Part shown: in pieces, positions 47,770 through 63,843 of the stretch
How positions within the stretch are numbered: position 1 is the stretch's first letter
Layout of the letters: every line of letters begins with the position of its first letter
Assembly (NCBI GenBank): GCA_965178125.1
Contig: OZ237738.1
Location: forward strand, 1,178,001 to 1,242,000
Length of the DNA: 64,000 nt
DNA from: Bilabrum cf. latius
Lineage: Eukaryota
Direction: 5' to 3'
Notes under the pieces: generated by a model
Seen by the model: only the letters and a program-made list of their open reading frames with translations
Told to the model about the DNA's origin: nothing
Databases searched by the model: none
Translations under genes and position numbers: made by a program

Positions 47770-48789
47770 ATGGAATTATTAAAATGGGAAAATGGAACCT
47801 TGAAAGCTACACAACCAAAAGAATATTATGAACGAAATGGATTTTAGGTTAATTTTGAAGGGAAAACCTATCATATAGCAATGGATAAAGATTATATAAG
47901 ATGGTTTTTGAAGGACTATAAACCTTATGAAATAATAACAACATTCATAACAGATATGAGTGAAGTATTCAATGGATAGGATAAATTTAATGAACCTTTG
48001 AATACTTGGGATGTTTCAAATGTTAAGGATATGAGTTTAATGTTTCAAAGTTGTAGAAGCTTTAATCAACCATTGAGCAATTGGGATGTTTCTAAGGTTG
48101 AAAAAATGTCGTCTATGTTCTATTTTTGTTCTAAATTCAATCAATCATTGAACGATTGGAATGTTAGTAATGTTAGGGATATGAGTGGTATGTTTGGTTC
48201 TTGTTCAAGATTCAATCAACCATTGGATAATTGGGATGTTTCTAAGGTTGAAAATATGTCCTCTATGTTTAATGGATGTTGGAACTTCAATCAACCATTG
48301 GATAATTGGGATGTTTCTAACGTTGAAAATATGTCCTCTATGTTCCATTATTCTGAATTCAATCAATCATTGAACGATTGGAATGTTAGTAATGTTAGGG
48401 ATATGAGTGGTATGTTTGGTTCTTGTTCAAGATTCAATCAACCATTGGGTAATTGGGATGTTTCTAACGTTGAATATATATCCTCTATGTTTAATGGATG
48501 TTAGAACTTCAATCAACCATTGGATAATTGGGATGTTTCCAATGTCTAGAGTAAGTTTTAGATGTTAAAAGATTGTGAAAGTTTCAATCATTTAGAGAAC
48601 GGTATTAAGGGTATAAGAATTGATTATTCTACAACATTGATACCGTTGTTAGAAAGACGAAAACATAAAACCATTAAAAAAACAAAGAAATATAGAGAGG
48701 AATTAATTGCTAAAGCGTGGCACCCTTCAAGATTAGATTGGGTATTGGATAACGAGGAGCGAGACGAGATAGAGGATAATTTTAATTAA
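47770..48789 (+). CDS. DUF285/BspA-like 25-aa repeat protein, paralog 1
   Basis: FNQPLxNWDVSxVxxMSxMF repeats; five in-frame TAGs; ends TAA. Confidence 0.85.
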
Positions 48790-48878
48790 TAGAATTTTAA
48801 TAATATTAATGATTATTTAATATTATAGTGTGAGTTTAAAAAGGCTTAAATAATATATTTATTATAGGTATATACAGA

Positions 48879-49676
48879 ATGGAAGTTTTAAAATGGGAAA
48901 ATGGAACCTTGAAAGCTACAAAACCAAAAGAATATTATTTTAGAAAAGATAATTATATTGTGAAATTTGAAGGTAAAACATATTACGTAGCTAAAGATAC
49001 AGATTTTCTTCTTCACGCATTGTAGTTTTTGAAACCTGAATTATTAGTAACAACATTTATTACGAATATGTTAAACCTATTTGATAATATGATAATTGAA
49101 TCACCAATAAATTCATGGGATGTTTCAAATGTTAAAGATATGACCGATATGTTTTATGGGTGTCATTCGTTTAATCAACCTTTAAATAACTGGGATGTTT
49201 CAAATGTTGAAGATATGGGCGGTATGTTTAATGAGTGTCATTCGTTTAACCAACCATTGAATAATTGGAATGTTTCAAATGTTGAAGATATGAGTGAAAT
49301 GTTTAATGATTGCCATTCATTTAACCAACCATTGAATAATTGGAACGTTTCAAATGTTAAAGATATGTGCGGAATGTTTTATGATTGCCATTCACTAAAT
49401 CAACCTTTAAATAACTGGGATGTTTCAAATGTTGTAGATATGGAATGTATGTTTTCTAATTGTTTTAGTTTTAATCATTTGGAGAATGGAATTAAGGATG
49501 AACGAATTGATTATTCCACGACATTAATCCCATCATTAGAAGAGCGGAAAGATGAAACAATTGAACAAACTAAAAAAATCAAAGAAGAATTAATTTCTAG
49601 AGCGTGGCACCCTTCAAGATTAGATTGGGTATTGGATAACGAGGAGCGAGACGAGATAGAGGATAATTTTAATTAA
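48879..49676 (+). CDS. DUF285/BspA-like 25-aa repeat protein, paralog 2
   Basis: Same N-terminus (MEVLKWENGTLKAT) and C-terminus (AWHPSRLDWVLDNEERDEIEDNFN) as paralog 1; one TAG at 49023. Confidence 0.85.
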
Positions 49677-49717
49677 GTTTTATTATAATAATTATTTTAT
49701 TTTTAATTATTATAGAT

Positions 49718-61300: not shown

Positions 61301-62837
61301 CAGTTCCTCCCGCTCCGGCGGATGAGTCAGCAGTGGCACGTTGCCACCGGCTGACGACGACAGCAGGCTCGGTGAGCCTTCGTCATCGTCCAGAAAACCC
61401 TGCAGCTCGCACCAGGCGTGCGTGCAGGAGGTCGAAGCGAGCAGCGCGGTGTGGCGCAGCTCGTAGACGGAGGCCGGCCTGGAGCCTGGTCGGTTGCCGC
61501 AGCATCAGTGGTGGGCTGGTGCTGTGTCTTGCGCGGGTGCCGGAGCTTGGCCACGGTGGCCTGCTGCTCCCTGCGCCCCACGCGCAGTTCCTCCCGCTCC
61601 GGCGGATGAGTCAGCAGTGGCACGTTGCCACCGGCTGACGACGACAGCAGGCTCGGTGAGCCTTCGTCATCGTCCAGAAAACCCTGCAGCTCGCACCAGG
61701 CGTGCATGCAGGAGGTCGAAGCGAGCAGCGCGGTGTGGCGCAGCTCGTAGACGGAGGCCGGCCTGGAGCCTGGTCGGTTGACGCAGCATCAGTGGTGGGC
61801 TGGTGCTGTGTCTTTGCGCGGGTGCCGGAGCCTGGCCACGATGGCCTGCTGCTCCCTGCGCCCACGCGCAGTTCTCCCGCTCCGGCGGATGAGTCAGCAG
61901 TGGCACGTTGCCATTGACTGACGCCCCCTCGTCAGGCTTGCTCCCTACATCCAGTAGTTTGGAGCACCCTGATTTCCCGCTTTGCGGATGAGTCACTGCG
62001 GGTATATTCTCCGGCAGCTGACGATCTCTTGGGCCACATGGTTCCTCGCCCAGGAACAGGCATGTAGACACAGTGGTAGCCACTCCACTGGCCTACTTGC
62101 AGGTTCCCAATCGACTGGTTCTTCCACGGATGTCGCCGTACGTACCTCCTTTGGCACAACCCGACTGCATAGTCGATGAGTTGTGTCAACGGACTCAACG
62201 CCGGCGCGGTTTCGTCCCTGACCTACGGTCGTCGACTCGACTACCGCTATCATCGACTGTTTCCACACGTCCTACAGATGGTCCCGACAACCAGTCAACT
62301 TCAATGATCAAGGCATGGCGATGTAAGACTTGGCTGATAGTGGAGCGGACGCGCAACCGACGGTTCTGGTGCTTTCCAACCGACGTCGGCGCGCGGTCTG
62401 CTCAGATTGGCCATGCTTTGCCCATGTCTTGATTGAACTGGAGACGAAGTGTGTCGAGTAAGCATCGTTGCATCATAATGCTAACGCCGAATGGGGTTCG
62501 GGGTTGATGTGGCGATGCGTTCGAGACTCGAACACAGGCTCCGGTCTACCAACGCGAGGTTGCAACCGCCAGTGCGACCAGCAGCTTGCGAGGCATTCCC
62601 TCGTCTCCTTCCTTAGGGAAGGGGGCGGGGCAGCGCGGCAGTGGCCGTTCCGGCTCATGCCGTTGTTTTGTCCCACCCTCCTCTCCCTGGTTTGGCTGAT
62701 AGTGGAGCGGACGCGCAACCGACGGTTCTGGTGCTTTCCAACCGACGTCGGCGCGCGGTCTGCTCAGATTGGCCATGCTTTGCCCATGTCTTGATTGAAC
62801 TGGAGACGAAGTGTGTCGAGTAAGCATCGTTGCATCA
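58349..62837 (+). mobile_element. Non-autonomous Ngaro-type (tyrosine-recombinase retrotransposon) element with split direct repeats
   Basis: A1 58349-58545 = A2 62475-62671 (197 bp); B1 62330-62475 = B2 62692-62837 (146 bp); order A1-internal-B1-A2-B2; GC-rich island in AT-rich virus; no target-site duplication; no RT/RNaseH/YR motifs seen. Confidence 0.85.
59080..61913 (+). repeat. Tandem array of ten ~284-bp GC-rich units
   Basis: gacgacagcaggctcg recurs about every 283-285 bp, ten times. Confidence 0.95.
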
Positions 62838-62889
62838 GATAAGGTTTATTAATAAATATTTATTTGTATAGCTTTAATATATAAATAAA

Positions 62890-63843
62890 ATGAGTTATAG
62901 CGATGAATTTGTAAGATTGAATTTAGTTAGTTCATCTGTCCCCCACAATTAGACGAGATAGGCGGTAGTGAATGAAACCCGTGAAGGCTTAATATTAAAA
63001 CAAAGTGAAAATTATTTAACGGCTGTTGAAGAGATGGATTTAAATAAATTTATGCTACCGGTGTTTAAACCTGAATATTAGGATGACAGCGGTAAAACCT
63101 ATTTAAAATTTACTCTTGAGAATAAAACATCAGGAGCCAGAGCAGGCGATTATATAGTTCTAGGTAAAAAAGCTAAATTTTATTATTCATATTAGGATAT
63201 TGTAAATGAATTTAATGAAGAGTTAAGCCGAATTTGTGATTTGGTAAGCCTTCCAAGTGGTGATAAACCAGTCTTTAAATTTGAAAATAATAAATGGAGT
63301 TTATCAACAACTGAAGATTTTAGAGATAATTATTATTTATTTGTTAATTTTGAAGCTTTTGCTTTATTTGATAAATTTGAATATGAAGGAATAACAACCA
63401 CACCGAGTGATTTATTTGCTAAACTTTCATATAATAATTCCCCTGCTAGTGGTGATTATGTTTTTATGGCTAGATAGACGAATTTAAATTCTTGGTGCCC
63501 TGTTAAATCTATTATCGTAGAAAGTGATATTCCAGTGAATAAAGAATTGGTGACCACAAAATCATCTACTGGTGGCTCTATAGCCGTCAATAAATCCCCT
63601 ATATTAACCAGCTACCCGTATAATCCTAATGACAGCTCACCAATAGAAAATATATTATATGTTTCTAATCCTTACCGCTGGTATTCAATGATGAAGGATA
63701 GAAGCTTTAAGAGCGTGTCAATGGCGTTCTACTGGGTTGATAAACAAAATGAAAAGTATCCCGTAATGAATTTTAACGGGGGTGAAGCTCACATTAAACA
63801 AGTATTTAAAAAACAAACCGATAATTTAAGTTTAGATTTTTAA
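62890..63843 (+). CDS. Virophage minor capsid (penton) protein
   Basis: ETREGLIL...NYLTAV...LPVFKP, YYSY[TAG]DIV, SWCPVKSIIVESDIPV, FYWVDK resemble virophage pentons; five TAGs; ends TAA; follows the protease in synteny. Confidence 0.8.

What the first reader, a model, noticed from the sequence alone, without database searches (positions are those of the whole stretch)
47770..63843. The integrated virophage is itself recoded to the host's UAG=Gln code
Seen: nearly all viral genes carry in-frame TAGs with frames otherwise intact. The conserved oxyanion-hole Gln of the cysteine protease is TAG (57907-57909). Integrase Q[TAG]ADL and KS[TAG]MALVERLN, and penton YSY[TAG]D, also fall at Gln-type positions. 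This pattern is not random decay: only one in-frame TAA and no in-frame TGA were found, although TAA should be the commonest nonsense codon in AT-rich DNA. Inference: a virophage lineage adapted to a recoded host and non-functional in standard-code hosts. Its helper giant virus should also avoid UAG as a stop, so the code could act as a host-range barrier and a marker linking virus to host. Such elements are missed by standard ORF calling (the protease is absent from the ORF track).
Basis: partly seen in the sequence, partly recalled or inferred. Interest (0 to 1): 0.95.

Follow-up and report, generated by a model that had tools for sequence, protein, structure and literature searches.

The report
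Integrated virophage that reads UAG as glutamine
An AT-rich virophage sitting in a GC-rich protist genome can only make its proteins if the stop codon UAG is read as glutamine, as in its host's own genes, so the virus is tied to hosts with this rare genetic code.

Summary
The AT-rich element (about 47290-58345 and 62838 to past 64000, 31% GC in a 62% GC host) has 13 compact genes. Together they carry 51 in-frame TAG, 1 in-frame TAA and 0 in-frame TGA.

- **Not decay:** off-frame in the same genes TAA is the commonest stop triplet (400 TAA, 268 TGA, 155 TAG).
- **TAG means Gln:** four TAGs lie on near-invariant Gln columns: protease Q140 (138 of 141 homologues, aligned to adenain Q115) and integrase Q54, Q148 and Q291 (14, 13 and 15 of 15).
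- **TAG has replaced CAG:** in frame the counts are 51 TAG to 4 CAG, much like TTG to CTG at 50:6.
- **Host agrees:** host ORFs also need TAG as sense (67 in-frame TAG in 12,630 codons, no internal TGA or TAA), and one paralogue pair shows TAG opposite CAG.
- **Relatives differ:** related IMG/VR virophages use the standard code and end genes on TAG.

The finding's span also contains a 4.5-kb GC-rich Ngaro-like insertion that is not viral. This copy's integrase carries one TAA. The helper-virus and host-range ideas remain untested. Endogenous viruses following a host's variant code are already reported (Streblomastix), so this is a new variant of a known kind.

The parts
47290..47769 (.). Left non-coding end of the AT-rich element. 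The boundary is approximate and set by the GC shift just after the host zinc-finger gene's TGA at 47248-47250.
   Evidence: GC 0.62 host, 0.31 element. A 93-nt stretch at 47478-47569 recurs at 58126-58216 with 84% identity.
47770..48789 (+). DUF285 repeat protein a, 339 aa, 5 in-frame TAG, ends TAA
   Evidence: Pfam PF03382, E 1.1e-86; TAG sites
48879..49676 (+). DUF285 repeat protein b, 265 aa, paralogue of a, 1 TAG, ends TAA
   Evidence: Pfam PF03382, E 8.4e-55
49718..50065 (+). orf115, the only gene with no TAG; unknown function
   Evidence: no Pfam family
50113..50529 (-). orf138, 1 TAG; unknown function
50631..51002 (+). orf123, predicted coiled-coil-like, 1 TAG, ends TGA
51043..52200 (+). 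rve-type integrase with a C-terminal chromodomain, 385 codons, 7 in-frame TAG (codons 54, 148, 170, 200, 218, 291, 339) and one in-frame TAA
   Evidence: Pfam rve 1e-06 and Chromo 1.3e-05 on the two halves. PFV integrase alignment. 17 homologues found. Q54, Q148 and Q291 are Gln in 14, 13 and 15 of 15 homologues.
51415..51417 (+). The single in-frame TAA (integrase codon 125). It lies on a variable column. An otherwise identical database protein, P0155, has Glu here.
52237..52854 (-). orf205, 2 TAG; unknown function
52900..54978 (-). orf692, low-complexity protein rich in Gln, Pro and Glu; 13 TAG
   Evidence: P(open by chance) 9e-31
55056..55445 (-). orf129, basic protein, 3 TAG
55503..56318 (+). 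orf271, 4 TAG; unknown function
56381..57481 (+). Putative packaging ATPase, 366 aa, 3 TAG, ends TGA. The motifs GKSGSGKS and LFILDD were read by eye only.
   Evidence: Translation. No Pfam family and no word-based homologue. The assignment rests on motifs and on position upstream of the protease.
57490..58065 (+). Clan CE (adenain/Ulp1-like) cysteine protease, 191 aa, 6 TAG (codons 42, 99, 125, 140, 166, 184), ends TGA
   Evidence: 1174 homologues. H73, D90, Q140 and C149 are near-invariant. Profile against adenain 1avp. AF2 model pLDDT 91.9. Foldseek: adenain 3.8e-05, Ulp1 5.6e-05.
57907..57909 (+). TAG encoding protease residue 140. The column is Gln in 138 of 141 homologues and aligns with adenain Gln115.
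58346..62837 (.). GC-rich (64%) insertion with Ngaro-type split direct repeats: A1 58346-58545, B1 62330-62475, A2 62472-62671, B2 62692-62837, each pair 100% identical. Ten 284-bp tandem units fill 58972-61828. No RT or recombinase ORF was found. It lies in the protease-penton spacer.
   Evidence: The architecture A1-[ORFs]-B1A2B2 is taken from a passage of PMC8547959.
62890..63843 (+). Penton (minor capsid) protein, 317 aa, 5 TAG (codons 21, 24, 64, 102, 196), ends TAA
   Evidence: Pfam PF21507 Sputnik V18/19, 5.3e-07, 29.2 bits against a cut-off of 27. P0001 is 94% identical. Aligns with pentons of IMG/VR virophage loci.
63915..64000 (+). Start of the next gene, probably the major capsid protein. 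It is cut by the window end.
   Evidence: ATG preceded by tatatataaaaaa. The order protease-penton-MCP is seen in L002-L010, with Pfam MCP_V20_C in L003 and L004.

Best explanation
The AT-rich segment is an integrated virophage with a Sputnik-type penton, a clan CE maturation protease, a putative packaging ATPase, an rve/chromodomain integrase and accessory genes. Its genes are written in a code where UAG means glutamine and UAA and UGA stay stops. This is the same code the surrounding host genes need.

Proposed mechanism:
1. Virophage mRNAs are translated on host ribosomes. There UAG is decoded by a Gln-tRNA and is not recognised as a stop. This step is inferred; no tRNA or release factor lies in the window.
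2. In such a host CAG to UAG is a synonymous change.
3. The AT-biased mutation pressure of the virophage has therefore moved almost all G-ending Gln codons from CAG to UAG, 51 against 4. The same pressure moved CUG to UUG, 6 against 50. This is shown by codon counts.
4. UAG now encodes essential residues, namely the protease oxyanion-hole Gln and three conserved integrase Gln. This is shown by alignments.
5. In a standard-code cell 12 of 13 proteins would be truncated, so the lineage is tied to UAG=Gln hosts. This is inferred.

This particular copy carries one TAA in its integrase. It also carries a non-autonomous Ngaro-like insertion in an intergenic spacer. It may therefore be impaired even though the lineage is code-adapted.
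For: 1. Stop pattern. There are 51 in-frame TAG, 1 TAA and 0 TGA in 13 genes. Off-frame counts are TAA 400, TGA 268, TAG 155. P = 2e-35.
2. Conserved Gln. Protease TAG140 is Gln in 138 of 141 homologues, and the column lines up with adenain H54/E71/Q115/C122. The fold is clan CE. Integrase TAG54, TAG148 and TAG291 are Gln in 14, 13 and 15 of 15 homologues.
3. Codon usage. In-frame CAG is 4, but off-frame CAG is 57 and 20, so the loss is codon-specific and not a triplet-wide mutation. TAG:CAG is 51:4, like TTG:CTG at 50:6. The G-ending share is 21-26% in the Lys, Glu, Leu and Arg pairs. For Gln it is 3% with CAG alone and 32% if TAG is counted.
4. Host. 15 stop-to-stop ORFs hold 91 TAG in 14,423 codons and end in TGA (11) or TAA (4). 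In 11 of them in-frame TAG is 67 against 73 and 82 off-frame, while internal TGA is 0 against 207 and 209. Pfam domains lie in these ORFs: kinase 6.9e-19, AIR9 4.8e-10, Vps18 5.3e-06, TIR 9.7e-09. The tandem paralogues show TAG opposite CAG at codon 274 and TAG opposite TAG at 722/703.
5. Relatives. Nine IMG/VR loci with a related protease (30-39% identity) have protease-penton-MCP order and long ORFs under the standard code. ORFs of 100 aa or more cover 0.99-1.71 of their length, against 0.55 for the window element, which rises to 1.16 with TAG as sense. Their protease Gln codon is CAA (4) or CAG (4) in the 8 loci checked. TAG ends 12 of 50 ORFs of 150 aa or more in the 7 loci checked. In the window none of the 13 genes has TAG as its last stop.
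6. Diverged close relatives exist. Two gene calls, P0002 and P0003 (73% and 71% identical), end exactly one residue before our TAG99. P0152 (81% identical) reads Q there.
7. Virophage identity. Pfam Sputnik V18/19 hits the penton, and MCP_V20_C is found next to related proteases.
Against: - No DNA of the closest relatives (P0001, P0152, P0156, P0002, P0003, P0155) could be seen. I cannot say whether their Gln residues are CAA/CAG or TAG read as Gln by the gene caller.
- No tRNA-Gln(CUA) was found in the window (ARAGORN 0 genes; Rfam 0 matches). No release factor gene was seen.
- There is no transcript or peptide evidence.
- Most TAG sites lie on variable columns. At protease sites 99, 166 and 184 Glu is commoner than Gln among homologues (46 to 29, 55 to 37, 61 to 9). 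Sites 42 and 125 are mostly Lys/Asn and Ser/Ala.
- The five penton sites are variable in six distant pentons.
- In the host zinc-finger array TAG stands twice where nine sister repeats have GAG.
- This copy has an in-frame TAA in the integrase and a 4.5-kb insertion.
- The capsid gene and any replication gene lie outside the window.
- The ATPase call rests on motifs read by eye.
- The integration junction could not be checked with reads.
Confidence: 0.85

Rival explanations
1. The TAGs are inactivating mutations in a decaying endogenous copy. One route would be C-to-T changes at CAG (a CHG-methylation type of mutation), which would also place TAG at Gln positions.
For: Close relatives show Q at 15 of 18 TAG sites. 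In-frame CAG is nearly gone, 4 left. The copy has one TAA and a transposon-like insertion.
Against: - CAG is not depleted off-frame (57 and 20, against 4 in frame). The overall CAG observed/expected ratio is only 0.73.
- CAA, 119 in frame, would give many TAA under C-to-T decay, but only one TAA exists, and P0155 has Glu at that site.
- There is no TGA and no frameshift in 13 genes.
- The host's own long ORFs carry TAG at the off-frame rate, so TAG is translatable here however it arose.
Confidence: 0.03
2. TAG is a sense codon here but stands for another amino acid, for example Glu, or is read ambiguously or inefficiently.
For: Glu is the commonest residue among homologues at three protease TAG sites. 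TAG replaces GAG in two host zinc-finger repeats. P0001 has Glu at one penton site.
Against: Four TAG sites are near-invariant Gln: 138 of 141 in the protease, with Glu in only 1 of 141, and 14, 13 and 15 of 15 in the integrase. The host paralogues show TAG opposite CAG. The TAG:CAG ratio mirrors TTG:CTG, as expected for synonymous first-base C/T pairs. Gln and Glu exchange freely at variable sites.
Confidence: 0.04
3. The lineage is code-adapted, but this copy is a dead relic. It cannot excise, integrate or be reactivated.
For: There is an in-frame TAA at integrase codon 125. A 4.5-kb Ngaro-like insertion sits between protease and penton. No replication gene was seen in the 12 kb of element in the window.
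Against: - P0155 equals the window's integrase except for Glu at the TAA site, so the TAA may be a copy variant or an assembly error.
- The insertion lies in a spacer and leaves 52 nt of upstream sequence, with the ATATA motif, before the penton.
- All other 12 genes are intact.
- The element keeps 31% GC in a 62% GC host, which argues for recent arrival.
- The rest of the element lies outside the window.
Confidence: 0.3
4. The element is a polinton-like virus or transposon that does not depend on a giant virus. It would then not be a virophage in the strict sense.
For: The capsid gene is outside the window. No giant-virus promoter motif was tested against a known helper. The rve integrase plus chromodomain is shared with many mobile elements.
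Against: The penton passes the Pfam cut-off for Sputnik V18/19. The relatives found through the protease carry MCP_V20_C capsid genes in the same gene order. No protein-primed polymerase was seen.
Confidence: 0.15

Closest known systems
Endogenous viral elements of Streblomastix strix that use the host's UAA/UAG=Gln code (Bellas et al. 2023, PMC10120064; passages read)
   Same: Integrated DNA-virus genes of the polinton/virophage supergroup follow a host's stop-to-Gln reassignment. The authors take this as a sign of long association.
   Different: There both UAA and UAG are Gln (table 6), and the elements cluster with a Metamonada PLV/Maverick-type capsid group. Here only UAG is reassigned, UAA stays the main stop (10 of 13 genes), and the element has Sputnik-type capsid genes. 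That paper's supplementary tables were not available to me.
Endogenous mavirus-like elements (EMALEs) of Cafeteria burkhardae with Ngaro insertions (Hackl et al. 2021, PMC8547959; passages read)
   Same: An AT-rich virophage sits in a GC-rich protist genome. It has an rve-type integrase, the ATPase-protease-penton-capsid module, and a GC-rich insertion with A1-[..]-B1A2B2 split direct repeats.
   Different: The passages read show no variant code for Cafeteria (0 hits for 'genetic code'). Here the genes need UAG=Gln. The insertion has no RT or recombinase ORFs and is filled by ten 284-bp tandem units.
Metagenomic virophages of IMG/VR (loci L002-L010)
   Same: Protease 30-39% identical and penton 22-27% identical. 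Same protease-penton-MCP order. MCP_V20_C capsid in L003 and L004.
   Different: They are open under the standard code. They use CAA or CAG at the catalytic Gln and use TAG as a stop, in 12 of 50 ORFs. Their GC is 32-51%.
Nuclear UAG=Gln, UAA=stop code (table-15-like) of Iotanema spirale (Panek et al. 2017, PMC5304391; passages read)
   Same: UAG is Gln, while UAA and UGA remain stops.
   Different: That report concerns a fornicate's transcriptome and mentions no virus (0 hits for 'virus'). The host of this window is an unidentified GC-rich eukaryote.
Adenain / Ulp1 clan CE cysteine proteases (PDB 1avp, 1nln, 2hl8)
   Same: The His, Asp/Glu, Gln and Cys order aligns and the fold matches.
   Different: Only 13-17% identity. 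Gln and Cys are 9 residues apart here, against 7 in adenain. The Gln is written TAG.

Membership tests
Virophage (Sputnik/mavirus-type morphogenetic module) | Penton (minor capsid) protein of the V18/19 type | tested here: met
   Pfam PF21507, E 5.3e-07, 29.2 bits against a cut-off of 27. Aligns with pentons next to V20-type capsid genes.
Virophage (Sputnik/mavirus-type morphogenetic module) | Double jelly-roll major capsid protein of the V20 type | not testable with these tools
   The gene starts at 63915 and is cut by the window end. No genome is held.
Virophage (Sputnik/mavirus-type morphogenetic module) | Clan CE maturation cysteine protease | tested here: met
   H73, D90, Q140 and C149 are near-invariant. 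Adenain alignment. AF2 pLDDT 91.9 and Foldseek hits to adenain, Ulp1 and I7L.
Virophage (Sputnik/mavirus-type morphogenetic module) | FtsK/HerA-type packaging ATPase | tested here: inconclusive
   Walker-like motifs were read by eye in the translation. No Pfam family and no homologue.
Virophage (Sputnik/mavirus-type morphogenetic module) | Replication dependent on a giant virus | not testable with these tools
   No experiment or helper genome is available. An ATATATA motif lies just upstream of 10 of 13 start codons but is not linked to any known helper.
UAG=Gln nuclear code (UAA and UGA stops) | In-frame UAG in genes with homologues, falling on conserved Gln | tested here: met
   Protease Q140, 138 of 141. 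Integrase Q54, Q148 and Q291 at 14, 13 and 15 of 15. Host paralogue TAG opposite CAG.
UAG=Gln nuclear code (UAA and UGA stops) | UAA and UGA still terminate | tested here: met
   Element genes end in TAA (10) or TGA (3) with no internal TGA. The penton ends at the same residue as P0001. Host ORFs end in TGA (11) or TAA (4). The single internal TAA is Glu in P0155.
UAG=Gln nuclear code (UAA and UGA stops) | tRNA-Gln with anticodon CUA and an eRF1 that ignores UAG | not testable with these tools
   No tRNA in the window. No genome is held.
Ngaro (DIRS-order) retrotransposon, for the insertion at 58346-62837 | Split direct repeats A1-[..]-B1A2B2 | tested here: met
   A1/A2 (200 nt) and B1/B2 (146 nt) are 100% identical and in that order. 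The definition comes from PMC8547959.
Ngaro (DIRS-order) retrotransposon, for the insertion at 58346-62837 | Reverse transcriptase, RNase H and tyrosine recombinase ORFs | tested here: not met
   No Pfam family in the three ORFs tested. The interior is ten 284-bp tandem units. It is at most a non-autonomous derivative.
Decayed pseudogenised endogenous viral element | Stops of all three kinds and frameshifts scattered through the genes | tested here: not met
   51 TAG, 1 TAA, 0 TGA, and no frameshift needed for any of the 13 genes.

The most novel reading that the evidence does not exclude
A complete three-partner system of protist, giant virus and virophage operates under UAG=Gln. The virophage lineage has swapped CAG for UAG as its G-ending Gln codon, including at catalytic residues. 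The code would then act as a hard host-range barrier for the virophage. It would also serve as a sequence marker that links uncultured virophages, and their helper viruses, to UAG=Gln hosts.
Probability: 0.45. Interest if true: 0.8.

Novelty: new variant of a known kind. Interest (0 to 1): 0.66.

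Why it matters
**Gene calling.** Standard gene calling sees almost nothing here: ORF cover is 0.55, the longest ORF is 253 aa, and the protease is invisible. Virophages and related elements of recoded protists are therefore under-counted.

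**Host linkage.** A virophage whose catalytic residues are written as UAG cannot express its proteins in a standard-code cell. The code then gives a sequence-only way to tie viruses to hosts. It also predicts a giant virus able to live with UAG=Gln. A 2026 giant-virus catalogue states that all confirmed isolates come from standard-code hosts (PMC13524828, passage read).

**Evolution of a freed stop codon.** The near-complete CAG-to-UAG switch shows how mutation pressure exploits a freed stop codon.

**Literature.** Five of my searches paired virophage terms (virophage, endogenous virophage, mavirus, Ngaro) with genetic-code terms. None listed a paper describing a UAG=Gln virophage. The nearest precedent is Streblomastix.

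Tried and rejected
- **ATPase-like protein.** The word-based homologue search gave 1897 candidates and none at E <= 0.001.
- **Penton against viral contigs.** 12 pattern matches, no relative.
- **Metagenome scans.** P0014 found nothing. P0140 gave one locus, L001. That is an 18-residue match in a 65% GC contig, which I set aside as spurious. The 6899-bp JGI contig behind P0014 and P0140, a protease called in two pieces, was not retrieved.
- **The search for related loci with the 145-row alignment.** Failed for lack of a conserved stretch. A 9-row alignment worked.
- **Protease alone against PDB.** Only chance hits. The family profile was needed.
- **Internal repeats of the DUF285 genes and the a/b paralogue pair.** The TAG sites fall on variable positions and are not informative.
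- **CHG-type mutation idea.** Rejected by frame-specific CAG counts.
- **RT or recombinase ORFs in the GC-rich insertion.** None found. No copy of the insertion occurs elsewhere in the window.
- **The look-up of sequencing runs.** It was answered on the fifth try. No RNA holder is listed. Six runs from two studies (organism codes A and B) hold half or more of the sampled words of 44501-54500.
- **Read laying.** No reads or contigs were laid, so the junctions, the TAA and expression remain unchecked.
- **Literature.** One search was too loose and gave nothing useful. Supplementary files were not consulted.

Full report
**Layout of the window.** The window is a GC-rich (62%) eukaryote-like stretch up to about 47250. 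It is followed by AT-rich DNA (31% GC) at 47290-58345 and a GC-rich (64%) block at 58346-62837. AT-rich DNA (30%) then resumes from 62838 to the window end. Under table 11 the AT-rich part has only short ORFs: ORFs of 100 aa or more cover 0.55 of its length and the longest is 253 aa. With TAG read as sense, cover rises to 1.16 and the longest ORF to 696 aa. Thirteen compact genes then appear.

**Checking the observation.** The 13 genes carry 51 in-frame TAG in 12 genes, one in-frame TAA (51415-51417, integrase codon 125) and no in-frame TGA. Ten genes end in TAA and three in TGA. One search counted 50 TAG because it split the integrase. The joined gene adds the TAG at 51484.

In the two off-frames of the same genes TAA is the commonest stop triplet (400 TAA, 268 TGA, 155 TAG). 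With that TAG share, 50 or more TAG among 51 stops has P = 2e-35. A 692-codon frame free of TAA and TGA has P = 9e-31. The protease region has no ORF of 80 aa or more under table 11.

**What the genes are.**
- Pfam finds DUF285 repeats in the first two genes (1.1e-86 and 8.4e-55).
- It finds rve and Chromo in the two halves of the integrase.
- It finds the Sputnik V18/19 minor capsid family in the penton (5.3e-07, above the curated cut-off).
- The protease has no Pfam hit of its own, but a full HMMER search found 1174 homologues at E <= 0.001.

I aligned the protease with 144 of the best 150 hits. I left out six long proteins of 217-288 aa: P0073, P0079, P0094, P0104, P0147 and P0149. In that alignment Y36, G72, H73, D90, D97, Q140, C149, G150, R156 and D183 are at least 90% conserved.

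The family profile aligns with adenain (1avp, E 0.014) so that His, Asp/Glu, Gln and Cys match adenain H54, E71, Q115 and C122. The residue numbers and the oxyanion-hole role of Q115 are recalled knowledge of adenain. An AlphaFold model built on this alignment (pLDDT 91.9) matches clan CE proteases: OtDUB 2.2e-05, adenain 3.8e-05, Ulp1 5.6e-05 and poxvirus I7L 9.2e-04. TM-scores are modest at 0.35-0.51.

The ATPase assignment rests only on Walker-like motifs read by eye and on gene position.

**What TAG stands for.**

In the protease:

| TAG codon | Residues in homologues |
|---|---|
| 140 | Gln 138 of 141 (others His, Arg, Glu, one each) |
| 99 | Glu 46, Gln 29 of 141 |
| 166 | Glu 55, Gln 37 of 141 |
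| 184 | Glu 61, Gln 9 of 139 |
| 42 | Lys 43, Asn 32, Gln 6 of 140 |
| 125 | Ser 59, Ala 24 of 137 |

In the integrase the word-based search gave 17 hits. I aligned 16 of them, leaving out P0171, the weakest with 37% cover. I counted 15, leaving out P0155 because it is the same sequence.
- TAG54 is Gln in 14 of 15, TAG148 in 13 of 15 and TAG291 in 15 of 15.
- Codons 170, 200, 218 and 339 are variable.
- The TAA column is variable: Glu 4, Leu 3, Thr 2, and Ala, Val, Asp, Gln, Pro and Ser once each.

So four of 13 TAG sites in these two enzymes sit on near-invariant Gln. In the integrase the three near-invariant Gln columns (Q54, Q148, Q291) are all TAG-coded, while the CAA/CAG-coded Gln lie on variable columns. 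The penton TAG sites are variable in six distant pentons.

**Codon-usage argument.** In frame, CAG occurs 4 times, CAA 119 and TAG 51. Off-frame, CAG occurs 57 and 20 times. The loss of CAG is therefore a codon-level effect. This rejects a triplet-targeted C-to-T mutation (for example at CHG sites) as the source of the TAGs.

The TAG:CAG ratio of 51:4 resembles TTG:CTG at 50:6, the other pair that differs by a synonymous first-base C/T. The G-ending share is 26% for Lys, 23% for Glu, 23% for TTR Leu and 21% for AGR Arg. For Gln it is 3% if only CAG counts and 32% if TAG counts. This is what AT-biased mutation would produce if TAG and CAG are synonymous. CAA cannot move to TAA because TAA is a stop.

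**The host uses the same code.**
- With TAG as sense the host part has 15 long stop-to-stop ORFs (14,423 codons) holding 91 TAG and ending in TGA (11) or TAA (4).
- One ORF of 2452 codons holds 32 TAG.
- In 11 of these ORFs (12,630 codons) in-frame TAG (67) is as frequent as off-frame TAG (73 and 82). Internal TGA is 0 against 207 and 209 off-frame, and internal TAA is 0 against 25 and 33.
- Pfam domains lie in these ORFs.
- Two tandem paralogues (1070 of 1127 aligned residues identical) show TAG opposite CAG at codon 274 and TAG opposite TAG at 722/703. A third TAG lies in an indel region.
- In a C2H2 zinc-finger array next to the element, TAG stands twice where nine sister repeats have GAG. 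That is a Glu/Gln-type position and is not decisive.
- No tRNA gene is in the window.

**Relatives.** Nine IMG/VR loci found with a 9-row protease alignment carry proteases 30-39% identical.
- The eight with a complete protease ORF show the order protease, penton (297-317 aa), capsid (568-609 aa, cut by the contig end in L005). L007, whose protease is cut by the contig start, shows penton then capsid.
- The capsid has Pfam MCP_V20_C in L003 and L004. L010's capsid had no Pfam hit.
- All nine are open under the standard code, with cover 0.99-1.71 and longest ORFs of 539-976 aa.
- In the 8 loci with a complete protease, the Gln codon picked by the motif is CAA (4) or CAG (4). In L008 the motif picked the first of two Gln two residues apart.
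- TAG ends 12 of 50 ORFs of 150 aa or more in the 7 loci checked, including two protease genes.

The window element is therefore the odd one out in its family.

Closer relatives exist only as database proteins:
- P0001 (penton, 94% identical) has E, Q, Q, Q, Q at our five TAG sites.
- P0152 (protease, 81%) has N, Q, Q, Q, Q, Q at our six.
- P0156 (integrase, 75%) has Q at six of seven sites and R at one, with Glu at the TAA site.
- P0002 and P0003 (73% and 71%) end exactly one residue before our TAG99.
- P0155 equals the window's integrase with Q at all seven TAG sites and Glu at the TAA site. It comes from an 8405-bp contig.

I could not see any of their DNA. It seems likely to me that some of these calls were made with TAG read as Gln. 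In that case their Q is not independent evidence for Gln. The truncated calls at least point to a stop triplet at site 99 in diverged copies.

**The rest of the span.** The GC-rich block at 58346-62837 has 100% identical split direct repeats in the order A1 ... B1 A2 B2 and ten 284-bp tandem units inside. No Pfam family was found in its three ORFs tested. The architecture is that given for Ngaro retrotransposons that invade Cafeteria virophages (PMC8547959, passage read). Without the enzyme ORFs it is at most a non-autonomous derivative. It lies in the protease-penton spacer and breaks no gene.

**Mechanism and confidence.**
- Shown: the stop pattern, the conserved-Gln alignments, the codon swap, the host's TAG-containing ORFs and the standard code of relatives.
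- Inferred: decoding by a host tRNA-Gln(CUA) with an altered release factor; that the virophage cannot work in standard-code hosts (10 of 13 genes would stop within the first 21% of their length); and that a helper giant virus tolerates UAG=Gln.
- I put 0.85 on the main reading.
- I put about 0.3 on this copy being defective because of the TAA, although P0155 suggests the TAA may be a variant or an error.

**Comparison with what is known.**
- Bellas et al. 2023 report that endogenous viral elements of Streblomastix strix use the host's UAA/UAG=Gln table (PMC10120064, passages).
- Paez-Espino et al. 2019 note an ochre-reading tRNA in one virophage clade as a possible sign of recoded hosts (PMC6905037, passage).
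- A 2026 catalogue reports giant-virus bins that annotate better under variant codes, while all isolates come from standard-code hosts (PMC13524828, passages).
- A UAG-only Gln nuclear code was described for Iotanema (PMC5304391, passages).
- Five searches pairing virophage terms (virophage, endogenous virophage, mavirus, Ngaro) with genetic-code terms listed no paper describing a UAG=Gln virophage.

I therefore rate this a new variant of a known kind. The phenomenon has a precedent. The virus group, the UAG-only code and the near-total CAG-to-UAG replacement at catalytic sites are new as far as these searches reach.

**Limits.**
- No genome is held.
- Six runs from two studies hold half or more of the sampled words of 44501-54500, and none is on record as RNA.
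- Supplementary files of papers were not consulted.

Noticed in passing
window 58346-62837: A GC-rich insertion inside the virophage. It has Ngaro-type split direct repeats (A1, B1, A2, B2, each pair 100% identical) and an interior of ten 284-bp tandem units instead of RT or recombinase genes. No other copy occurs in the window.
   Followed up: partly
window 51415-51417: The only in-frame TAA. A database protein (P0155, from an 8405-bp contig) equals the window's integrase but has Glu here. The TAA may be a copy variant or an assembly error.
   Followed up: partly
window 47478-47569 and 58126-58216: A 93-nt direct repeat (84% identity) between the left non-coding end of the element and the spacer after the protease, just before the insertion. 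Its meaning is unknown.
   Followed up: no
window 47690-63915, upstream of start codons: An ATATATA-type motif lies within about 10 nt of the ATG in 10 of 13 element genes, and also before the likely capsid gene. It is possibly a promoter with very short leaders.
   Followed up: no
window 8364-11984 and 12589-15972: Tandem host paralogues (1070 of 1127 aligned residues identical) encoding multi-pass membrane-like proteins. They give the TAG/CAG comparison.
   Followed up: partly
window 45706-47250: A host C2H2 zinc-finger gene with 11 near-identical 87-nt repeat units directly next to the element. Two units have TAG where the others have GAG.
   Followed up: partly
window 16166-23524: A host ORF of 2452 codons with 32 in-frame TAG (1.3%), about twice the density of the other host ORFs. 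It is low-complexity and has no Pfam family.
   Followed up: no
window 34609-38430 (- strand): A host ORF of 1273 codons with an N-terminal TIR domain (Pfam TIR_2, 9.7e-09) and 4 in-frame TAG.
   Followed up: no
window 47770-49676: Two paralogous DUF285 repeat genes at the left end of the virophage. They share N- and C-terminal regions, which suggests recent duplication and repeat turnover inside the element.
   Followed up: no
proteins P0014 and P0140 (one 6899-bp JGI contig): A related protease called in two pieces (107 aa and 70 aa) on one metagenome contig. This may be another element with an in-frame stop. The contig could not be retrieved.
   Followed up: partly
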